This document shows positions 50,672 to 58,192 of a stretch of DNA of 64,000 bases, one piece after another. The DNA lies in the NCBI GenBank assembly GCA_964599645.1, contig CAZRGQ010000001.1, positions 11,135-75,134 on the forward strand. Reading direction: 5' to 3'. Made by a program: the position numbers and the translations under genes. The notes below the pieces were generated by a model. That model ran no database searches. It saw only the letters and a list, made by a program, of their open reading frames with translations, and was not told the origin of the DNA. Position 1 is the first letter of the stretch. Every line of letters starts with the position of its first letter. The stretch comes from an uncultured Lentisphaerales bacterium (GTDB lineage: Bacteria > Verrucomicrobiota > Kiritimatiellia > RFP12 > JAAYLN01).

Positions 50672-50790
50672 TGAGGGTTGTGCTGGCGGAGAAAGTCTCC
50701 GCTCGTGCAAATCCCCCTGGAGGGTTGTGCTTCCGCACAACCACGGCAGTGCAGAAGCACTGCCCTCCATTACCTCAGCTCGTGCAAATA
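50672..50790. mobile_element. REP/BIME-like compound palindromic element adjacent to the RAYT gene
   Basis: Three consecutive perfect hairpins: GCGGAG-aaagt-CTCCGC (50686-50702), GGTTGTGC-ttcc-GCACAACC (50723-50742) and GGCAGTGC-agaa-GCACTGCC (50745-50764). An outer stem TGGAGGG/CCCTCCA (50718-24 / 50763-69) encloses the last two. Direct repeats GAGGGTTGTGCT x2 and GCTCGTGCAAAT x2 flank the unit. Confidence 0.6.
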
Positions 50791-51688: not shown

Positions 51689-52861
51689 CTAATCTGTTGT
51701 CACGTTAACTTGACCATTCATCAGCATCGGAAGCAGCCAGTCGCGGAGTTGTTCGAGCTTGGTTGATTCTTGGCGGTTTTTGACGATTTTATGGAGTATT
51801 GGATTCAGTATTGTGTCCAGTTGATTGATTAGACTTTGAGGAGGCAGAGGTAATCTGCTCATCTCTAAGTGGTCTTTTGTAATATGTCCCATAGTTGTTT
51901 TTCGTAGTTCAGCTACCATTTTGAAATAATCTAAGTAACCGAGTAGGACAAAATAAAAGAATGATTTTGGGTACGACTCAGAGGTGACTTTATAAATGTG
52001 TTGGTTCAAAACGCCAGTTCCGCCTGTCCAAAGTTTTACATCAAGAGTTGCAGACCATGAGAAGAGAACATCTGCGTCATGTATGATTAGATCAGATGGC
52101 ACGTTGGCTGTTACAACATCAGAGCTTTCATCAAGTCCAGAGGAGAATTCGCGAATTTTAATAACTTTATAGACGCCCTTTTCATTGGCTTGTGGGAAGT
52201 ACTTTTGGCAAGCAATACCGTTGGTAAAAGTAGCAATATCTACAAGAGAACCTACCTCCCATCCTTCAGGAATCTTTCGTTTCAGGGTGGAGTTGTAGGT
52301 CATTTTGCCGCCGGAGGTTTTGTAGGGCTTACCGTTGGCATCGAGAAAGTCGAACTGCACAAACCAGTAGTCGTAGAGCGTTTTTGCCATCGCCTCCAGC
52401 TCGGCGTTGATGCGGTTGTTGAGTTCGATTTTGTCATCGAGAGCGGAGAGGACATTAGCAATTTTCTTTTGTTCTAGAACATCTTCGACAACAGGAATGA
52501 CCATTGAATGTAATTCATTTCTATTAACGCCAGGAACTGTGCTTTTATCGGAAGTTTTGATACGCCCAAGGCAATTCATCAGATAATAAATGTACTTTGG
52601 ATCGTTACCTTTAAAGTCTGTTATATACAAAGAAGTGTTATGAGGCCAAAAGTTTTCTTTTATGAAATATGCTGTTCCTAAACTGCCAGTTCGTCCTGTT
52701 ACAACGCCGGGTGCTATTACTTTGTATTCATTATGGCAGCCAGATACACCTGATGAACTAACGACTGGGAATGGACCATGTTTTCTGTCTTTTTCTGTTA
52801 GATCATAGCCACGCTTCCAGTTTATAACATCACCCATTTTCCTTGGAACAACTTTTCTCAT
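51689..52861 (-). CDS. hsdS: type I restriction-modification system specificity subunit
   Basis: Two target-recognition domains separated by conserved repeats; the pattern matches HsdS. Lies downstream of hsdM. Confidence 0.8.
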   Translation of the reverse strand: MRKVVPRKMGDVINWKRGYDLTEKDRKHGPFPVVSSSGVSGCHNEYKVIAPGVVTGRTGSLGTAYFIKENFWPHNTSLYITDFKGNDPKYIYYLMNCLGRIKTSDKSTVPGVNRNELHSMVIPVVEDVLEQKKIANVLSALDDKIELNNRINAELEAMAKTLYDYWFVQFDFLDANGKPYKTSGGKMTYNSTLKRKIPEGWEVGSLVDIATFTNGIACQKYFPQANEKGVYKVIKIREFSSGLDESSDVVTANVPSDLIIHDADVLFSWSATLDVKLWTGGTGVLNQHIYKVTSESYPKSFFYFVLLGYLDYFKMVAELRKTTMGHITKDHLEMSRLPLPPQSLINQLDTILNPILHKIVKNRQESTKLEQLRDWLLPMLMNGQVNVTTD

Positions 52862-53384
52862 ACTTCACCCCCGCCAACTGCTGTTAACCATGCCTTTCCA
52901 TTCTGCGGCAGCCGATATTTTTGTAAACGGCTTTGTTCTCCAGTCAGCACGTGCAACATGCGCGCCACTTGTGCGATTACTTGATTGGTTACTTGGAGGG
53001 TTACTTGGAGGGTGGCCCTTTCAGAGCTATCCCGATTCTGCGACAGATGCTGACTTTCTTTGCCACTTTTTATACTCAACCTCTTGCACTTACGGCCCGG
53101 ACGTAGATTCGCTCTCCATTGGACAATGGCACTCAATGATTGATGTAATGAGGATGGCGACAGGCCTGTTGTCAAAAGGTAGGGCGCGTCTCTCCGAGAC
53201 CGCCGCGGACGGCTACGGAGAGCCGTCCCTACCTGCGCAAAAGCAAGAGCATGTGAAGTGGTAGCGTAAAATCCTCCGCAGTTTTCAGAGCCATTCTCTG
53301 CCACCGACTCTGCCCTTGACTCTGCCCTTGACTCTGCCACCGACTTGTGCAGCGACTTTGTCACCGACTCTGCCCATAGCCTAT
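52862..53384. repeat. ~0.5-kb insert between hsdM and hsdS, flanked by 28-bp imperfect direct repeats (52858-52885 / 53385-53412, 25/28 identical) that duplicate the hsdM 3' end
   Basis: Contains 12-nt tandem arrays: TTACTTGGAGGG and variants x3 at 52977-53012, and GACTCTGCCCTT and variants x3-4 at 53305-53376. The overlapping 176-aa ORF (52858-53388) is low-complexity (AESRAESRAES..., LQVTLQVT...). Confidence 0.6.
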
Positions 53385-55015
53385 TCATACTTCACTCCCG
53401 CTAACTGCCGTTTGATCTCGGCTTCTAACTGGTGGGACTCAGCAAACAGCTTATCAAGATTTCGGGTAAAGCCTTGCATCTTCTGGGCGAACTCTTCGGG
53501 GGTAATGTCAACATACTCGATTTTAACTTCAAAGTATTGACCGGCACTCAGGCTGTAGTTTTTGGCTTTGATGTCATCATAGCTGACGGCGACAGAAAAG
53601 TCATCAAGGCTTTGTTTGCTGTTGAAGGTGTCAATAATCTGCTGTTCTTCGGCACTGGTGAGGACGGTCTTCTGGTTCTTACCGTCTTTGACCTTTTCAC
53701 CAAGGTTGGAGGCATCCACCAGAATCACCTCGCCCTTATTGCCGGCATCAATAAAGAGTACCGAGACATTGGTGCCGGTGGTGGCAAAGATGTTGGAGGG
53801 CATGGAGACGACACCAGCCAGCATCTGGTCGTCAACCAGCTTTTGGCGAATTTTTTTGTCGATACCCGACTGCGCCGTAATAAAGCCGGTGGGGACGACT
53901 ACCGCCGCTTTGCCACCGGGTTTGAGCGAGGCGATGATGTGCTGCAAGAAGAGCTGGTAAATCGCCATCTTGTCTTTGGCTTTATTGGGGACAGCGGGGA
54001 TACCGGCAAAGAAACGCTCTTTATTCTCTTTGCTCTCAAGCGCATCACGAAAATCGCTGAAATCGAGTTTGAAGGGTGGATTGGAGACCACATAGTCGAA
54101 GCGTCTGAGCGCCCGCCTCTCTTTGTGGTAAGGGTACAGGATGGTGTTGCCCTGAATCACATTGGGGATGGAGTGTACCAGATTGTTCAAAATCAGGTTG
54201 AGGCGCAGCAGATTGGTCGATTTTTGCGAAATATCCTGCGTGTAGATGCTGCAACGGTCACTACCGATGGCGTGGGAGATGTTCATCAGTAGCGTGCCGG
54301 AGCCGGCGGAGGGATCGTAGCAGGTGACGTTTCTGATAGTGCCGCGCTTTGACTCAGGTACCAGAATATCAGCCATGATGCGCGCTACGGCGTGCGGCGT
54401 GAAGTATTCGGCGTATTTGCCGCCTGAGTTGCTGTTGTAGTCTTTGATCAGGTACTCAAAGATGACGGCGTAGAAATCGAATTTCTGGGTGAAGATACGC
54501 TCAAAGCTGAACTCCACCAGTTTGTTGATAATGGCGCGGCAGAAATCGTCGCGCCTGGAGGGATCGGCGATATATTCGCTGAGGCGGTCGAAGAGCACCA
54601 CCTTGGCACCGCCATCGGTTTTGACCGCAAAGACGTCGTTGTTGGTGATGGCGATATCGATCAGGGTATCGTCAAAGAGCTTGGCAAAATCGGGCGCGTT
54701 TTGCTGACTGAAGAGGTGGCTGATAAAATGCTGCGGTTTCAGACGTGCGGTGTCGCCACCCATCTGTAGTTGCAGCATTTCCAAATCATCGGCACTCATG
54801 GCACTCAGCGCCTCTTCCCAGTTTTCTGCCCGGGCGATCGCAGGGTCTATTTTTTTGGCCTCAAAGGCGAATTTATCGTTGAGAAACTTATACAAAAAAG
54901 TTTGGGTGATAATTTTAAACTCGTTGCCATCGTTGCCCAGGCCATAGTTGGCGCAAATACTTTTCAGGCTATCGATAAGCGCTTTGGTCTTTTGCTGAAA
55001 CTCAAGTTCTCTCAT
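53381..55015 (-). CDS. hsdM: type I restriction-modification system DNA methyltransferase subunit (N6-adenine)
   Basis: SAM-binding motif and catalytic VVSNPPF (NPPF) motif. 544 aa. Confidence 0.85.
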   Translation of the reverse strand: MRELEFQQKTKALIDSLKSICANYGLGNDGNEFKIITQTFLYKFLNDKFAFEAKKIDPAIARAENWEEALSAMSADDLEMLQLQMGGDTARLKPQHFISHLFSQQNAPDFAKLFDDTLIDIAITNNDVFAVKTDGGAKVVLFDRLSEYIADPSRRDDFCRAIINKLVEFSFERIFTQKFDFYAVIFEYLIKDYNSNSGGKYAEYFTPHAVARIMADILVPESKRGTIRNVTCYDPSAGSGTLLMNISHAIGSDRCSIYTQDISQKSTNLLRLNLILNNLVHSIPNVIQGNTILYPYHKERRALRRFDYVVSNPPFKLDFSDFRDALESKENKERFFAGIPAVPNKAKDKMAIYQLFLQHIIASLKPGGKAAVVVPTGFITAQSGIDKKIRQKLVDDQMLAGVVSMPSNIFATTGTNVSVLFIDAGNKGEVILVDASNLGEKVKDGKNQKTVLTSAEEQQIIDTFNSKQSLDDFSVAVSYDDIKAKNYSLSAGQYFEVKIEYVDITPEEFAQKMQGFTRNLDKLFAESHQLEAEIKRQLAGVKYE

Positions 55016-55045: not shown

Positions 55046-58000
55046 CTAACAGGCTTGTCCGCCGGTATTGTACTCTCGCATATACTCCCGCACCACCAAC
55101 TGGTTGATATAGTGTGAGACTTCGGCGTTGAGCGGGATATCTTGCTCACCTTTGAAACGCCGGATGACAAATGGCATCATCTGGAGTTCAAAATAGCTTT
55201 CGTTATCGAGTATCTGGCTGTTGTTAAGTACTTGCTCGTCGGCATCCTGCTTGATGCCCTGCAAGGCCCCGAATATTTTGCGTTCAGAATCACACAGATC
55301 ATTAGCCTGTTGCTGACGCTCCAGTAGACGCTTGTGCAGTCGCGCATATTTGGTGTCGCCACTATATTTTTGCCGCAAGAGGCTGTTCTGTCGATTAAGC
55401 TCCTTGATACGTTCATGAATTTTATTCAGCACCACAATGTTGGCACTCATCTCTGTCTGGGTCACTTCACTGAGTTTTTTCTTCTTAAAGAGTCGTTCAA
55501 GCTCCTCTTTCAGGGTGATAAACTGCGGGTCTTGCTGGTCAAAATTGCTCCCCAGGGCTTCGCGTGTCCTCCGCAGGGTATCTTTCAGCTCATCGGCCAG
55601 CTTCAACTCCTCTTCGCCGATTTTTACAAACTTGAATACCACCTCTTCGAGGGCGCGGTTAAGCAGGTTGGTGGTCTCCTCTCCGCTCTCCAGGCTCTGC
55701 TTGAGGTTGAGCAGGTCAAGATGGTTGCTGACTTCACGATACAAGATGTTGAGTGCAGTAAAATCGAGTTTATCGAGCTCTTCATAGTTGCCTTGCAGAC
55801 GAATGACGTTATACAGACTGCGGGCATCGGCCAGTGCTTTTTTGAGTGCCAGTACACTTTCTCTATTTTGCATCTGGCTAATTTGAATGGAAAACTCTTC
55901 AAGATTTTCGGTGTCAAAGTGGAATAAGAGATCCTTGATGTGCTCAATCTCCTGCTGAATCTCCTCCGGCGACTTAAAGAGTTGCGAGTAGTGCTCCATT
56001 TCATCACCCAGCTCGCTTTGCAACTCGTCAAAATAGGCCTTATTGGTGGCATCAAACTCCTGGCGAATGTCGGCAAAATCGACCACATAACCGTAGCGGA
56101 AGGCTTTGTAGGTGCGGTTGACACGGGTTAAGGCTTGCAGCAGATTTTGTTTGCGAATCACACGCCCCAGGTAAATCTTCTTGAGTCTCGGTGCATCAAA
56201 GCCGGTAAGGAGCATGTTATAGACAAAGAGAAGGTCGATCTTGCCTGCCTTGAAATCTTCGATCCACGCTTTGCGCTCCTCTTTGGTGCCGACATCGTGC
56301 AGGATCAAGGCGGCACTGCGGATCTTTTGCGCCTGTTTTTTTGATGCCATATAACTCATGGAAATCTCTTCCGCCGCTTTTAATAGAAGAGGTTCTTCGC
56401 TTCTTGTTTTACTGAACAAAAGAGATGGCTTGGCAAAGAAGGCATTAAAAATCGCAAACAACTGTTTGGCCTGCTCTGAACTGTCGCAAATCACCATGGC
56501 GCCGATGCTGGCGTCATTAAACGCGCCCCGGCTGGCTTCAAAGTCGCTGACAATGTAGTCGAGCATGGGCGCCACAAAGCTGGGATGGGCATAGATGTGC
56601 TTCCGCTCCACATCACCCATTTTGACCTCAGCCTCTTCTAGCGCCTGCTGCAGTTGCAGCTTGTATTGAGTCGAGATCTCTTCGCGAATCAAGCGCAGGG
56701 TATAGCCATCGGCAATGGAGGCATTGTAGTAGTATTTGTGAATATAGTCGCCGAATAGGTCGCGTGAGCTGTAGTCTGCCGCTTTATGGGGGCCGGAATA
56801 ATAGTCTCTTCCCAGCAACGGGGTGCCGGTTAAGCCGATTTTAATGGCTGTTCGATCGGACTCGTTTAAGTTGGCTAAAAAGCTGCCATGCGGGTTGTAG
56901 CTACGGTGTACTTCATCGAGAAAGTAGACGCGCTGAATGGCGACGTCATAATCTTTGGTGCTCACCACATCCGGGTCGTCTTTAAATTTTTGAATATTGA
57001 CGACGGTAATTTCAGGTGTACCCGAGTGGTTATGAAGCGCCTGTGTTGCTTTGATAGCACGGCTAAACTCTTCACGCGAGTTGACCGTATGTACCACCAG
57101 GTTACGTGCGGTAAACTCCCGCTGCGCCTGTTGCAGCAAATCGAGCCGGTCAACGATGAAGTAGAACTTGGGAATGATATTTCGCTTCTGGAAATAATCG
57201 GTCAAAAAATGGACGTTGTAGTAAGCCAATGCGGTTTTGCCACTCCCCTGAGTGTGCCAGATAATCCCTTTTTTGATGCCGTCATTCAGCTTCTGCTCAA
57301 TAGCTTTCGTGGCAAAGAGCTGCGGGTAGCGCATAATGTGCTTTTGGATGCCGCTATTTTCGTTGACGTAAGTAAGAGCAAAACGCAGGATAAAAGCGAG
57401 GCGTTCGCGGCTAAGTAAAGAGGTGCAGAGACGGTTGGTCGGACGCTCAGGCTGTTTGTTGGTCAGGAACTCGGGGTTGTTCTTGATGACTTCCAGATTG
57501 TTGTCTTTTAAAACCTCACGTTCTGCTTCATCTGATAACGGCTTAAGCAATGCCGTAAGATTGAAGACCTCCTCTTCACGGAAGTAGTTAAAGCCGGGGT
57601 TATGATAAGAGCTGCTGGCATAAAAAGCCCCCTGTAGGGGCTCAGGGTCGCTATTGTCGTACTCCATGTTATTGGAGAAGATCATAAACTGGGTGATATT
57701 GACAAAGCGTCGGAATTTAGGGTTCTGAAAGCGCCTGGTGATGCGCTCACGCTCGGCAATAATACCATCACGGTTATTCGGTTTTTTAACTTCGATAAAG
57801 ATCAATGGCATACCGTTGATCAGCAGGGTGATATCGGGCCGAAACTCCTCACCGCCATGCTGATAGGTCAATTCGGTGACGACATGGAAGCTGTTGTGAT
57901 TAAAATTGTCAAAATCAAGCAACTTGATATTGGAGCGTTCTGTTAGCTGCTCAAAGAAGGCGCGGCCTAAATCTTCGTTATCGAGCTTCAGCTTCACCTC

Positions 58001-58192
58001 ATCCAGCAAGCGAACAGCATCGGCAGGCGCCAATCCCGGATTAATGTTTGCTACTGCTTTGCAAAAGAGTGCGGGAAAGATATTGGTCTCTGCATCCCAA
58101 TGCCCGTTTTTGAGCGACAAGTAGTCGTAGCCAAGCCGCATTAAATGCAAAATGGCAGGAATCTTCACCCGGCTGTCTTCGTTGAAACTCAA
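55046..58192 (-). CDS. hsdR: type I restriction enzyme R subunit (SF2 helicase/endonuclease)
   Basis: Walker A HTQGSGKTALAYY, DEAH box FLDEVHRS and N-terminal nuclease region. 1048 aa. Confidence 0.85.
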   Translation of the reverse strand: MSFNEDSRVKIPAILHLMRLGYDYLSLKNGHWDAETNIFPALFCKAVANINPGLAPADAVRLLDEVKLKLDNEDLGRAFFEQLTERSNIKLLDFDNFNHNSFHVVTELTYQHGGEEFRPDITLLINGMPLIFIEVKKPNNRDGIIAERERITRRFQNPKFRRFVNITQFMIFSNNMEYDNSDPEPLQGAFYASSSYHNPGFNYFREEEVFNLTALLKPLSDEAEREVLKDNNLEVIKNNPEFLTNKQPERPTNRLCTSLLSRERLAFILRFALTYVNENSGIQKHIMRYPQLFATKAIEQKLNDGIKKGIIWHTQGSGKTALAYYNVHFLTDYFQKRNIIPKFYFIVDRLDLLQQAQREFTARNLVVHTVNSREEFSRAIKATQALHNHSGTPEITVVNIQKFKDDPDVVSTKDYDVAIQRVYFLDEVHRSYNPHGSFLANLNESDRTAIKIGLTGTPLLGRDYYSGPHKAADYSSRDLFGDYIHKYYYNASIADGYTLRLIREEISTQYKLQLQQALEEAEVKMGDVERKHIYAHPSFVAPMLDYIVSDFEASRGAFNDASIGAMVICDSSEQAKQLFAIFNAFFAKPSLLFSKTRSEEPLLLKAAEEISMSYMASKKQAQKIRSAALILHDVGTKEERKAWIEDFKAGKIDLLFVYNMLLTGFDAPRLKKIYLGRVIRKQNLLQALTRVNRTYKAFRYGYVVDFADIRQEFDATNKAYFDELQSELGDEMEHYSQLFKSPEEIQQEIEHIKDLLFHFDTENLEEFSIQISQMQNRESVLALKKALADARSLYNVIRLQGNYEELDKLDFTALNILYREVSNHLDLLNLKQSLESGEETTNLLNRALEEVVFKFVKIGEEELKLADELKDTLRRTREALGSNFDQQDPQFITLKEELERLFKKKKLSEVTQTEMSANIVVLNKIHERIKELNRQNSLLRQKYSGDTKYARLHKRLLERQQQANDLCDSERKIFGALQGIKQDADEQVLNNSQILDNESYFELQMMPFVIRRFKGEQDIPLNAEVSHYINQLVVREYMREYNTGGQAC

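What the first reader, a model, noticed from the sequence alone, without database searches (positions are those of the whole stretch)
52858..53412. 0.5-kb tandem-repeat insert split hsdM from hsdS, flanked by a 28-bp duplication of the hsdM 3' end that preserves an ATGA coupling signal for hsdS
The last 28 nt of hsdM (TCATACTTCACTCCCGCTAACTGCCGTT, + strand, 53385-53412) recur with 3 mismatches immediately upstream of the hsdS start codon (52858-52885). The result is that hsdS still begins in an ...GTGAAGTATGA context. Between the copies lie 499 bp of low-complexity DNA (52886-53384) containing two short tandem arrays (3 x 12 nt TTACTTGGAGGG-like, 3-4 x 12 nt GACTCTGCCCTT-like). A 176-aa ORF spans it exactly from the hsdM stop to the hsdS start, but its product is low-complexity (AESRAESRAES...). 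It looks like a target-site-duplicating insertion (MITE-like) or an illegitimate-recombination scar inside an M-S translational couple. The tandem arrays could expand or contract and modulate hsdS expression. HsdS dosage and identity control type I R-M specificity, so this may be a novel regulatory or phase-variable arrangement.
Basis: seen in the sequence. Interest (0 to 1): 0.65.

Follow-up and report, generated by a model that had tools for sequence, protein, structure and literature searches.

The report
Decayed accessory gene plus small transposon
The 0.5-kb stretch between the two restriction-system genes is the wreck of an ordinary accessory gene that relatives still carry intact, with a small mobile repeat inserted in it; the 28-base "duplication" is a standard feature of this operon family.

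Summary
In detail: a 25/28 direct repeat, 499 nt between the copies, two 12-nt arrays, and a 176-codon ORF running from the hsdM stop to the hsdS start.

Relatives whose HsdM is 90-92% identical carry an intact 473-aa gene (X; SLFN_AlbA_2 + HATPase_c_4 + Fic-like_C) at this position, with the same overlaps.

ORF176 is that gene after two in-frame deletions:
- It keeps X's first 5 codons.
- It keeps X's native 4-residue (12-nt) repeat linker, which accounts for both arrays.
- It keeps X's last ~45 codons.

Only the central 257 nt is a true insertion. It is MITE-like, with ~55-nt imperfect inverted ends, a 7-bp target duplication and a central GTAG-tagged REPIN-like hairpin. Copies occur in unrelated loci.

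The 28-mer is not its target duplication. A copy of the canonical hsdM 3' tail precedes hsdS in five of six X-bearing operons examined, including intact ones (30/32 in L037).

Array length did not vary across eight assemblies, and 12-nt units cannot shift the frame, so phase variation is unsupported.

Every rearrangement kept the frame open. I infer, without a test, that translation is relayed from hsdM to hsdS. Ordinary gene decay; modest interest.

The parts
53381..55015 (-). hsdM, intact
   Evidence: N6_Mtase E=5e-65. 85-96% identical to thousands of HsdM proteins from marine gammaproteobacteria.
53385..53412 (-). Tail copy 1: 3' end of hsdM. It carries the Shine-Dalgarno-like GGGAG and the ATG of the next ORF.
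   Evidence: 26/32 to the canonical tail of an operon without X.
52858..53388 (-). ORF176: in-frame remnant of accessory gene X (SLFN_AlbA_2/HATPase_c_4/Fic-like_C) with a MITE inside. Proposed relay ORF.
   Evidence: BLASTP against the intact X of L020 gives E=5e-11 with a 40-aa gap. DNA matches. No Pfam domain remains. 0 stops in this frame against 12 and 7 in the other two forward frames.
53374..53388 (-). First 5 codons of X (MNRLW). Deletion 1 (about 365 codons) follows directly.
   Evidence: ATGAATAGGCTATGG matches ATGAATAAACTATGG in L019, where X is intact at its 5' end.
53290..53373 (-). 5' array of 12-nt units, read as AES[VR] and similar. An expanded native X linker.
   Evidence: Matches the EAESGA segment of L020 at 2819-2848. 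AES[GR] repeats occur in P0127, P0131 and P0133. Register shown.
53288..53294 (-). 5' copy of the 7-bp target-site duplication (ATGGCTC). The direct repeat extends to 12 nt, 53283-53294.
   Evidence: D6. Spacing between the copies is 264 nt.
53031..53287 (-). 257-nt MITE-like element, non-coding, with ~55-nt imperfect terminal inverted repeats.
   Evidence: 80-85% identical, with no indels, to copies in L001/L010 and L002/L008; a 5' half is in L009. The ends pair with each other. Substitutions show no codon periodicity.
53178..53233 (-). Central REPIN-like hairpin: two GTAG-tagged palindromes in inverted orientation.
   Evidence: Single-stranded DNA fold -22.1 kcal/mol, z=-4.6. The same hairpin stands alone in L004, L005, L006, L014, L015 and L018. 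Seven assemblies of this locus break inside it or at its edges.
53024..53030 (-). 3' copy of the 7-bp target-site duplication (ATAGCTC). The direct repeat extends to 53019-53030.
52966..53013 (-). 3' array of 12-nt units, read as TLQV TLQV TNQV IAQV. The native X linker.
   Evidence: 78% identical to the TPEV x4 array plus downstream sequence of L020, E=7e-16. The family shows the same kind of repeats.
52928..52965 (-). X remnant encoding ARMLHVLTGEQSR. It ends at deletion 2 (120 nt, 40 codons), at an AAGYCG microhomology.
52858..52934 (-). X 3' remnant (LQKYRLPQNGKAWLTAVGGGEV*), running into tail copy 2.
   Evidence: 71% identical to L020 3054-3122, E=5e-5.
52858..52885 (-). Tail copy 2: the hsdS leader. 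A copy of the canonical hsdM 3' tail with GGGGG as Shine-Dalgarno-like element and an ATGA stop/start overlap.
   Evidence: 27/32 to the hsdM tail of L021, which has no X. Equivalent copies precede hsdS in L033 (28/32), L034 (29/32), L035 (26/32) and L037 (27/32; 30/32 to its own hsdM tail).
51689..52861 (-). hsdS, intact, with two target-recognition domains.
   Evidence: Methylase_S E=1.9e-26, two stretches.
55046..58192 (-). hsdR, intact.
   Evidence: HSDR_N, ResIII, SWI2_SNF2 and T1R_D3-like.

Best explanation
The 499-nt spacer is a pseudogene, not an inserted unit.

Shown:
- This family of type I operons often carries an accessory gene X between hsdM and hsdS. X is about 470 aa, with Schlafen/AlbA_2, HATPase_c_4 and Fic-like C-terminal winged-helix domains.
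- X's start overlaps the hsdM stop by 8 nt. X's 3' end is fused to a second copy of the 30-40-nt hsdM tail, which leads into hsdS.
- In this lineage X lost about 365 codons after codon 5, and a further 40 codons in the winged-helix region. Both deletions are in frame.
- A 257-nt MITE-like element with a central REPIN-like hairpin then inserted into X's 12-nt-repeat linker with a 7-bp target duplication. That adds 264 nt, which is 88 codons, read in one of the element's stop-free frames.
- The two 'tandem arrays' are X's own linker repeats.
- The 28-nt repeat is the family-wide tail duplication.

Inferred:
- The tail copy supplies the Shine-Dalgarno-like element and the overlapping stop/start for hsdS.
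- Because every rearrangement kept the frame open, ribosomes leaving hsdM probably translate the 176-codon junk ORF and reinitiate at hsdS. In that case the ORF survives as a translational relay, and perhaps as protection against polarity, rather than for its product.
For: - L019 (HsdM 92% identical) and L020 (90%) carry X directly after hsdM with the same 8-nt overlap. X in L020 has three Pfam domains.
- DNA and protein homology between ORF176 and X covers the first 5 codons, the AES segment, the TPEV array plus ARML..GE.SR (E=7e-16), and the last ~23 codons (E=5e-5). BLASTP gives E=5e-11 with a 40-aa gap.
- X homologues have variable AES[GR] and T.[QE]V 4-residue repeats.
- X also lies between hsdM and hsdS on a Francisella plasmid and a Pseudanabaena plasmid.
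- Tail copies precede hsdS in L033, L034, L035 and L037. They match the canonical tail of an operon without X at 26-29 of 32 positions. In L037 the two copies in one intact operon match 30/32.
- The tail is read in the HsdM frame in L034 and L035, but in the +1 frame in the window and in L033. The constraint is therefore on the nucleic acid, not on the X protein.
- The MITE copies in L001 and L002 have their own flanking direct repeats. In L001, removing the element restores a 54-nt repeat unit, and the insertion adds exactly 264 nt in both hsd loci.
- Substitutions among MITE copies show no codon periodicity. The terminal inverted repeats pair.
- The spacer frame has 0 stops against 7-18 in the other forward frames, in both the window and L001/L010. 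Only 0.0002 of window shuffles and none of L001/L010 shuffles were open.
- hsdR, hsdM and hsdS are all intact.
- Translational coupling of hsdM and hsdS is established for EcoKI (PMC3510504, abstract seen).
Against: - The relay or coupling function is inferred from reading-frame preservation only. hsdS has its own Shine-Dalgarno-like GGGGG and could initiate independently.
- Much of the open frame is inherited from real coding sequence. The MITE plus its duplication is always 264 nt and is intrinsically stop-free in two of six frames. The chance expectation is therefore roughly 0.02-0.04, not vanishingly small.
- In L020 the X end matches the canonical tail only 19/32 (not significant by shuffling), so the tail copy is not universal.
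- The MITE boundaries are uncertain by a few nt. In the window the direct repeat runs to 12 nt.
- Multi-copy status in the source genome was not tested directly.
Confidence: 0.82

Rival explanations
1. The whole 499 nt is one MITE-like or illegitimately recombined insert that split an hsdM-hsdS couple, and the 28-nt repeat is its target-site duplication.
For: A 25/28 direct repeat flanks the segment exactly. A mobile repeat really is inside it.
Against: Both ends of the segment, and both arrays, are homologous to gene X of close relatives. The same tail duplication flanks intact X genes. The mobile part has its own terminal inverted repeats and 7-bp duplication, and only that part recurs elsewhere. 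Nothing in plasmids matched the whole segment, and in phages only part of the 5' array matched.
Confidence: 0.04
2. The 12-nt arrays are simple-sequence contingency repeats. Their expansion or contraction would switch or tune hsdS expression, as in a phase-variable type I system.
For: Tandem arrays lie upstream of hsdS. Repeat-driven phase variation exists in some type I systems (PMC7383803). Linker length does vary across the X family.
Against: The unit is 12 nt, so length changes cannot shift the frame. The 5' array is identical in seven independent assemblies, and both arrays are identical in variant P0123. The arrays are the ordinary linker of an accessory protein.
Confidence: 0.03
3. ORF176 encodes a functional small protein, either a neofunctionalised remnant of X or a new peptide.
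For: The ORF is intact and well placed for translation. The same frame is open in the L001 mosaic ORF.
Against: No domain survives. Half of the ORF is MITE sequence that evolves without codon periodicity. Variant P0123 carries 8 amino-acid changes, all in that half. Only two proteins in 1.8 billion cluster representatives match the core peptide.
Confidence: 0.05
4. The 257-nt element, or its hairpin, has been taken over as a cis-acting RNA or DNA element that tunes hsdS output, for example as an mRNA stabiliser, an attenuator or a recombination site. That would explain why two of four distinct copies lie between hsdM and hsdS.
For: Two of the four independent copies sit in hsdM-hsdS spacers of unrelated type I families. 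The fold is strong. The hairpin is followed by TTTT in the window. REPs are known to affect mRNA fate (PMC3733652).
Against: Other copies are intergenic near dnaA (L002) or next to an unrelated gene (L009). The covariation term is unfavourable, with only 2 compensatory pairs. There is no Rfam match. No terminator-like site was called there. The T-run is not conserved in L001 or L002. The protein-based search that first found L001 favours copies lying inside ORFs.
Confidence: 0.08

Closest known systems
Type I R-M operons with an accessory gene between hsdM and hsdS (COG2865-like 'RNA-binding / putative DNA-binding domain-containing protein'; also DUF1016/YhcG and RhuM)
   Same: Relatives L019, L020, L033, L034, L035 and L037, and two annotated plasmids, have hsdM-X-hsdS with overlapping stops and starts. 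The window has the same layout and the same junctions.
   Different: Here X is reduced to 88 of its own codons plus a MITE. No domain is left.
EcoKI hsdM-hsdS translational coupling (PMC3510504)
   Same: The stop and start overlap (ATGA) at the entry to hsdS, with a second overlap (ATGAATAG) at the exit from hsdM.
   Different: The coupling would have to pass through an intervening 176-codon ORF with no function of its own. This was not tested.
GTAG-tagged REPs and REPINs mobilised by RAYTs (PMC3116915, PMC3733652)
   Same: The central 56 nt consists of two short palindromes, each tagged by GTAG, in inverted orientation. Together they form one long hairpin. The same hairpin stands alone in other metagenomic contigs. 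A RAYT-like gene lies 1.7 kb away.
   Different: The hairpin sits inside a larger 257-nt element with ~55-nt terminal inverted repeats and a 7-bp target duplication, which REPINs do not have. The neighbouring RAYT is flanked by a hairpin of different sequence. Copy number in the genome is unknown.
MITEs, including palindromic elements that insert in frame into genes (Rickettsia RPEs; from my own knowledge, Ogata et al. 2000)
   Same: Small, non-coding, with terminal inverted repeats and a target duplication. Element plus duplication is 264 nt, a multiple of 3, and two frames are free of stops, so insertion into an ORF can be tolerated.
   Different: No cognate transposase was identified. The family is rare: four distinct copies were found with an exact 21-mer. 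The host ORF here is already a pseudogene.
Phase-variable type I systems driven by simple sequence repeats (PMC7383803)
   Same: Tandem repeats lie within a type I locus.
   Different: The 12-nt units keep the frame, lie in a remnant accessory ORF, and show no length variation.

Membership tests
Type I R-M operon with embedded accessory gene X | Intact hsdR, hsdM and hsdS in one transcriptional direction | tested here: met
   Pfam hits for all three, full length.
Type I R-M operon with embedded accessory gene X | A gene of the SLFN_AlbA_2/HATPase_c_4/Fic-like_C family between hsdM and hsdS | tested here: inconclusive
   Only a remnant is present. Homology to X covers the first 5 codons, the linker and the last ~45 codons, but no domain is detected. 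Close relatives carry it intact.
hsdM-tail duplication architecture (this hsd family) | A copy of the canonical hsdM 3' tail directly upstream of hsdS, in addition to the one at the end of hsdM | tested here: met
   Window 25/28 between its two copies, and 27/32 to the canonical tail. L033 28/32, L034 29/32, L035 26/32, L037 27/32 (30/32 between its own copies). L020 is weak at 19/32.
MITE | Short and non-coding | tested here: met
   257 nt. Substitutions among three copies show no codon periodicity (p=0.21-0.58).
MITE | Terminal inverted repeats | tested here: met
   The 5' ~55 nt pair with the 3' ~55 nt in the consensus fold of three copies.
MITE | Target-site duplication of fixed length | tested here: inconclusive
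   Flanking direct repeats fit 7 bp: window 6/7, L001 7/7, L002 6/7. Removing the element restores the L001 repeat unit, and the insertion is 264 nt in both hsd loci. The window repeat extends to 12 nt, and the ends are uncertain by a few nt.
MITE | Multiple copies per genome and a cognate transposase | not testable with these tools
   There is one copy in the 64-kb window. Indirect hints: seven assemblies break inside the hairpin or at its edges, and a second partial copy (L009) comes from the same metagenome as L016.
REP / REPIN | Short palindromic stem-loop tagged by GTAG, as an inverted dimer forming a long hairpin | tested here: met
   GTAG-GGACGGCT..AGCCGTCC, and on the other strand GTAG-GGCG.GTCTC..GAGACCGCC. 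Criteria taken from PMC3733652.
REP / REPIN | A cognate RAYT flanked by the same REP | tested here: not met
   The RAYT-like ORF at 50816-51307 matches NF047646 with E=1.7e-20, which is below the curated cut-off. The hairpin next to it (50718-50769) has a different sequence.
Phase-variable simple-sequence-repeat locus | A repeat tract whose length changes switch expression, with length polymorphism among isolates | tested here: not met
   The unit is 12 nt, so the frame is kept. The arrays are identical in L016, L024-L029 and P0123.
Known RNA family | A match to an Rfam covariance model | tested here: not met
   Nothing relevant at E<=10 in 52500-53800.

The most novel reading that the evidence does not exclude
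In this widespread hsd family, the duplicated hsdM tail may act as a modular docking leader. Accessory defence genes could then be gained or lost between hsdM and hsdS by recombination between the two tail copies, without breaking the translational chain. HsdS synthesis may depend so strongly on that chain that even a gutted, MITE-invaded accessory gene is kept as an uninterrupted 'relay ORF'. The mosaic 307-codon ORF of L001/L010 would be a second, independent example.
Probability: 0.3. Interest if true: 0.55.

Novelty: new member of a known kind. Interest (0 to 1): 0.3.

Why it matters
As flagged, the finding is not a new regulatory or phase-variable device. It is gene decay plus a small mobile repeat inside a horizontally acquired type I R-M island.

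Two points may interest specialists:
1. The accessory gene in this operon family is bracketed by two copies of the hsdM tail, which are conserved at the nucleic-acid level. That gives a simple route for precise gain or loss of the gene, and it keeps hsdS behind a constant leader.
2. In two independent loci, a spacer made of gene fragments, repeats and the same MITE stays open in exactly the frame that links the hsdM stop to the hsdS start. This gives a testable prediction about how much HsdS depends on upstream translation.

Tried and rejected
- **Rfam scan of 52500-53800 at E<=10:** only two chance snoRNA-level hits outside the insert.
- **blastn of the insert against plasmids:** nothing.
- **blastn of the insert against phages:** only a 79-nt match to part of the 5' array, in an unannotated Vibrio phage record.
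- **Two exact-pattern scans of viral contigs:** nothing.
- **Protein search with ORF176:** only itself and P0002. An exhaustive HMMER search with the core peptide found only itself and a spurious ORF spanning a REP array.
- **Genome-collection scan with core peptides:** one locus, L002.
- **Metagenome 21-mer scan:** six of the 16 hits were chance matches in GC-rich coding DNA (L003, L007, L011, L012, L013, L017).
- **Remnant of a second hsdM 3' end or of hsdS:** considered and rejected. The flanks match X, not hsdM or hsdS, beyond the tail itself.
- **Retron, group II intron, omega-RNA or attC site:** considered from memory and dropped. There is no reverse transcriptase, no matching motif and no Rfam support.
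- **An older tail duplication in L020:** in-register identity is suggestive, but the shuffle test was not significant (p=0.15).
- **The core as protein-coding, on either strand:** rejected for lack of codon periodicity.
- **An independent hsdS promoter:** one 9/12 promoter-like site lies at 52900-52927, but the number of such sites in the region is no higher than in shuffles.
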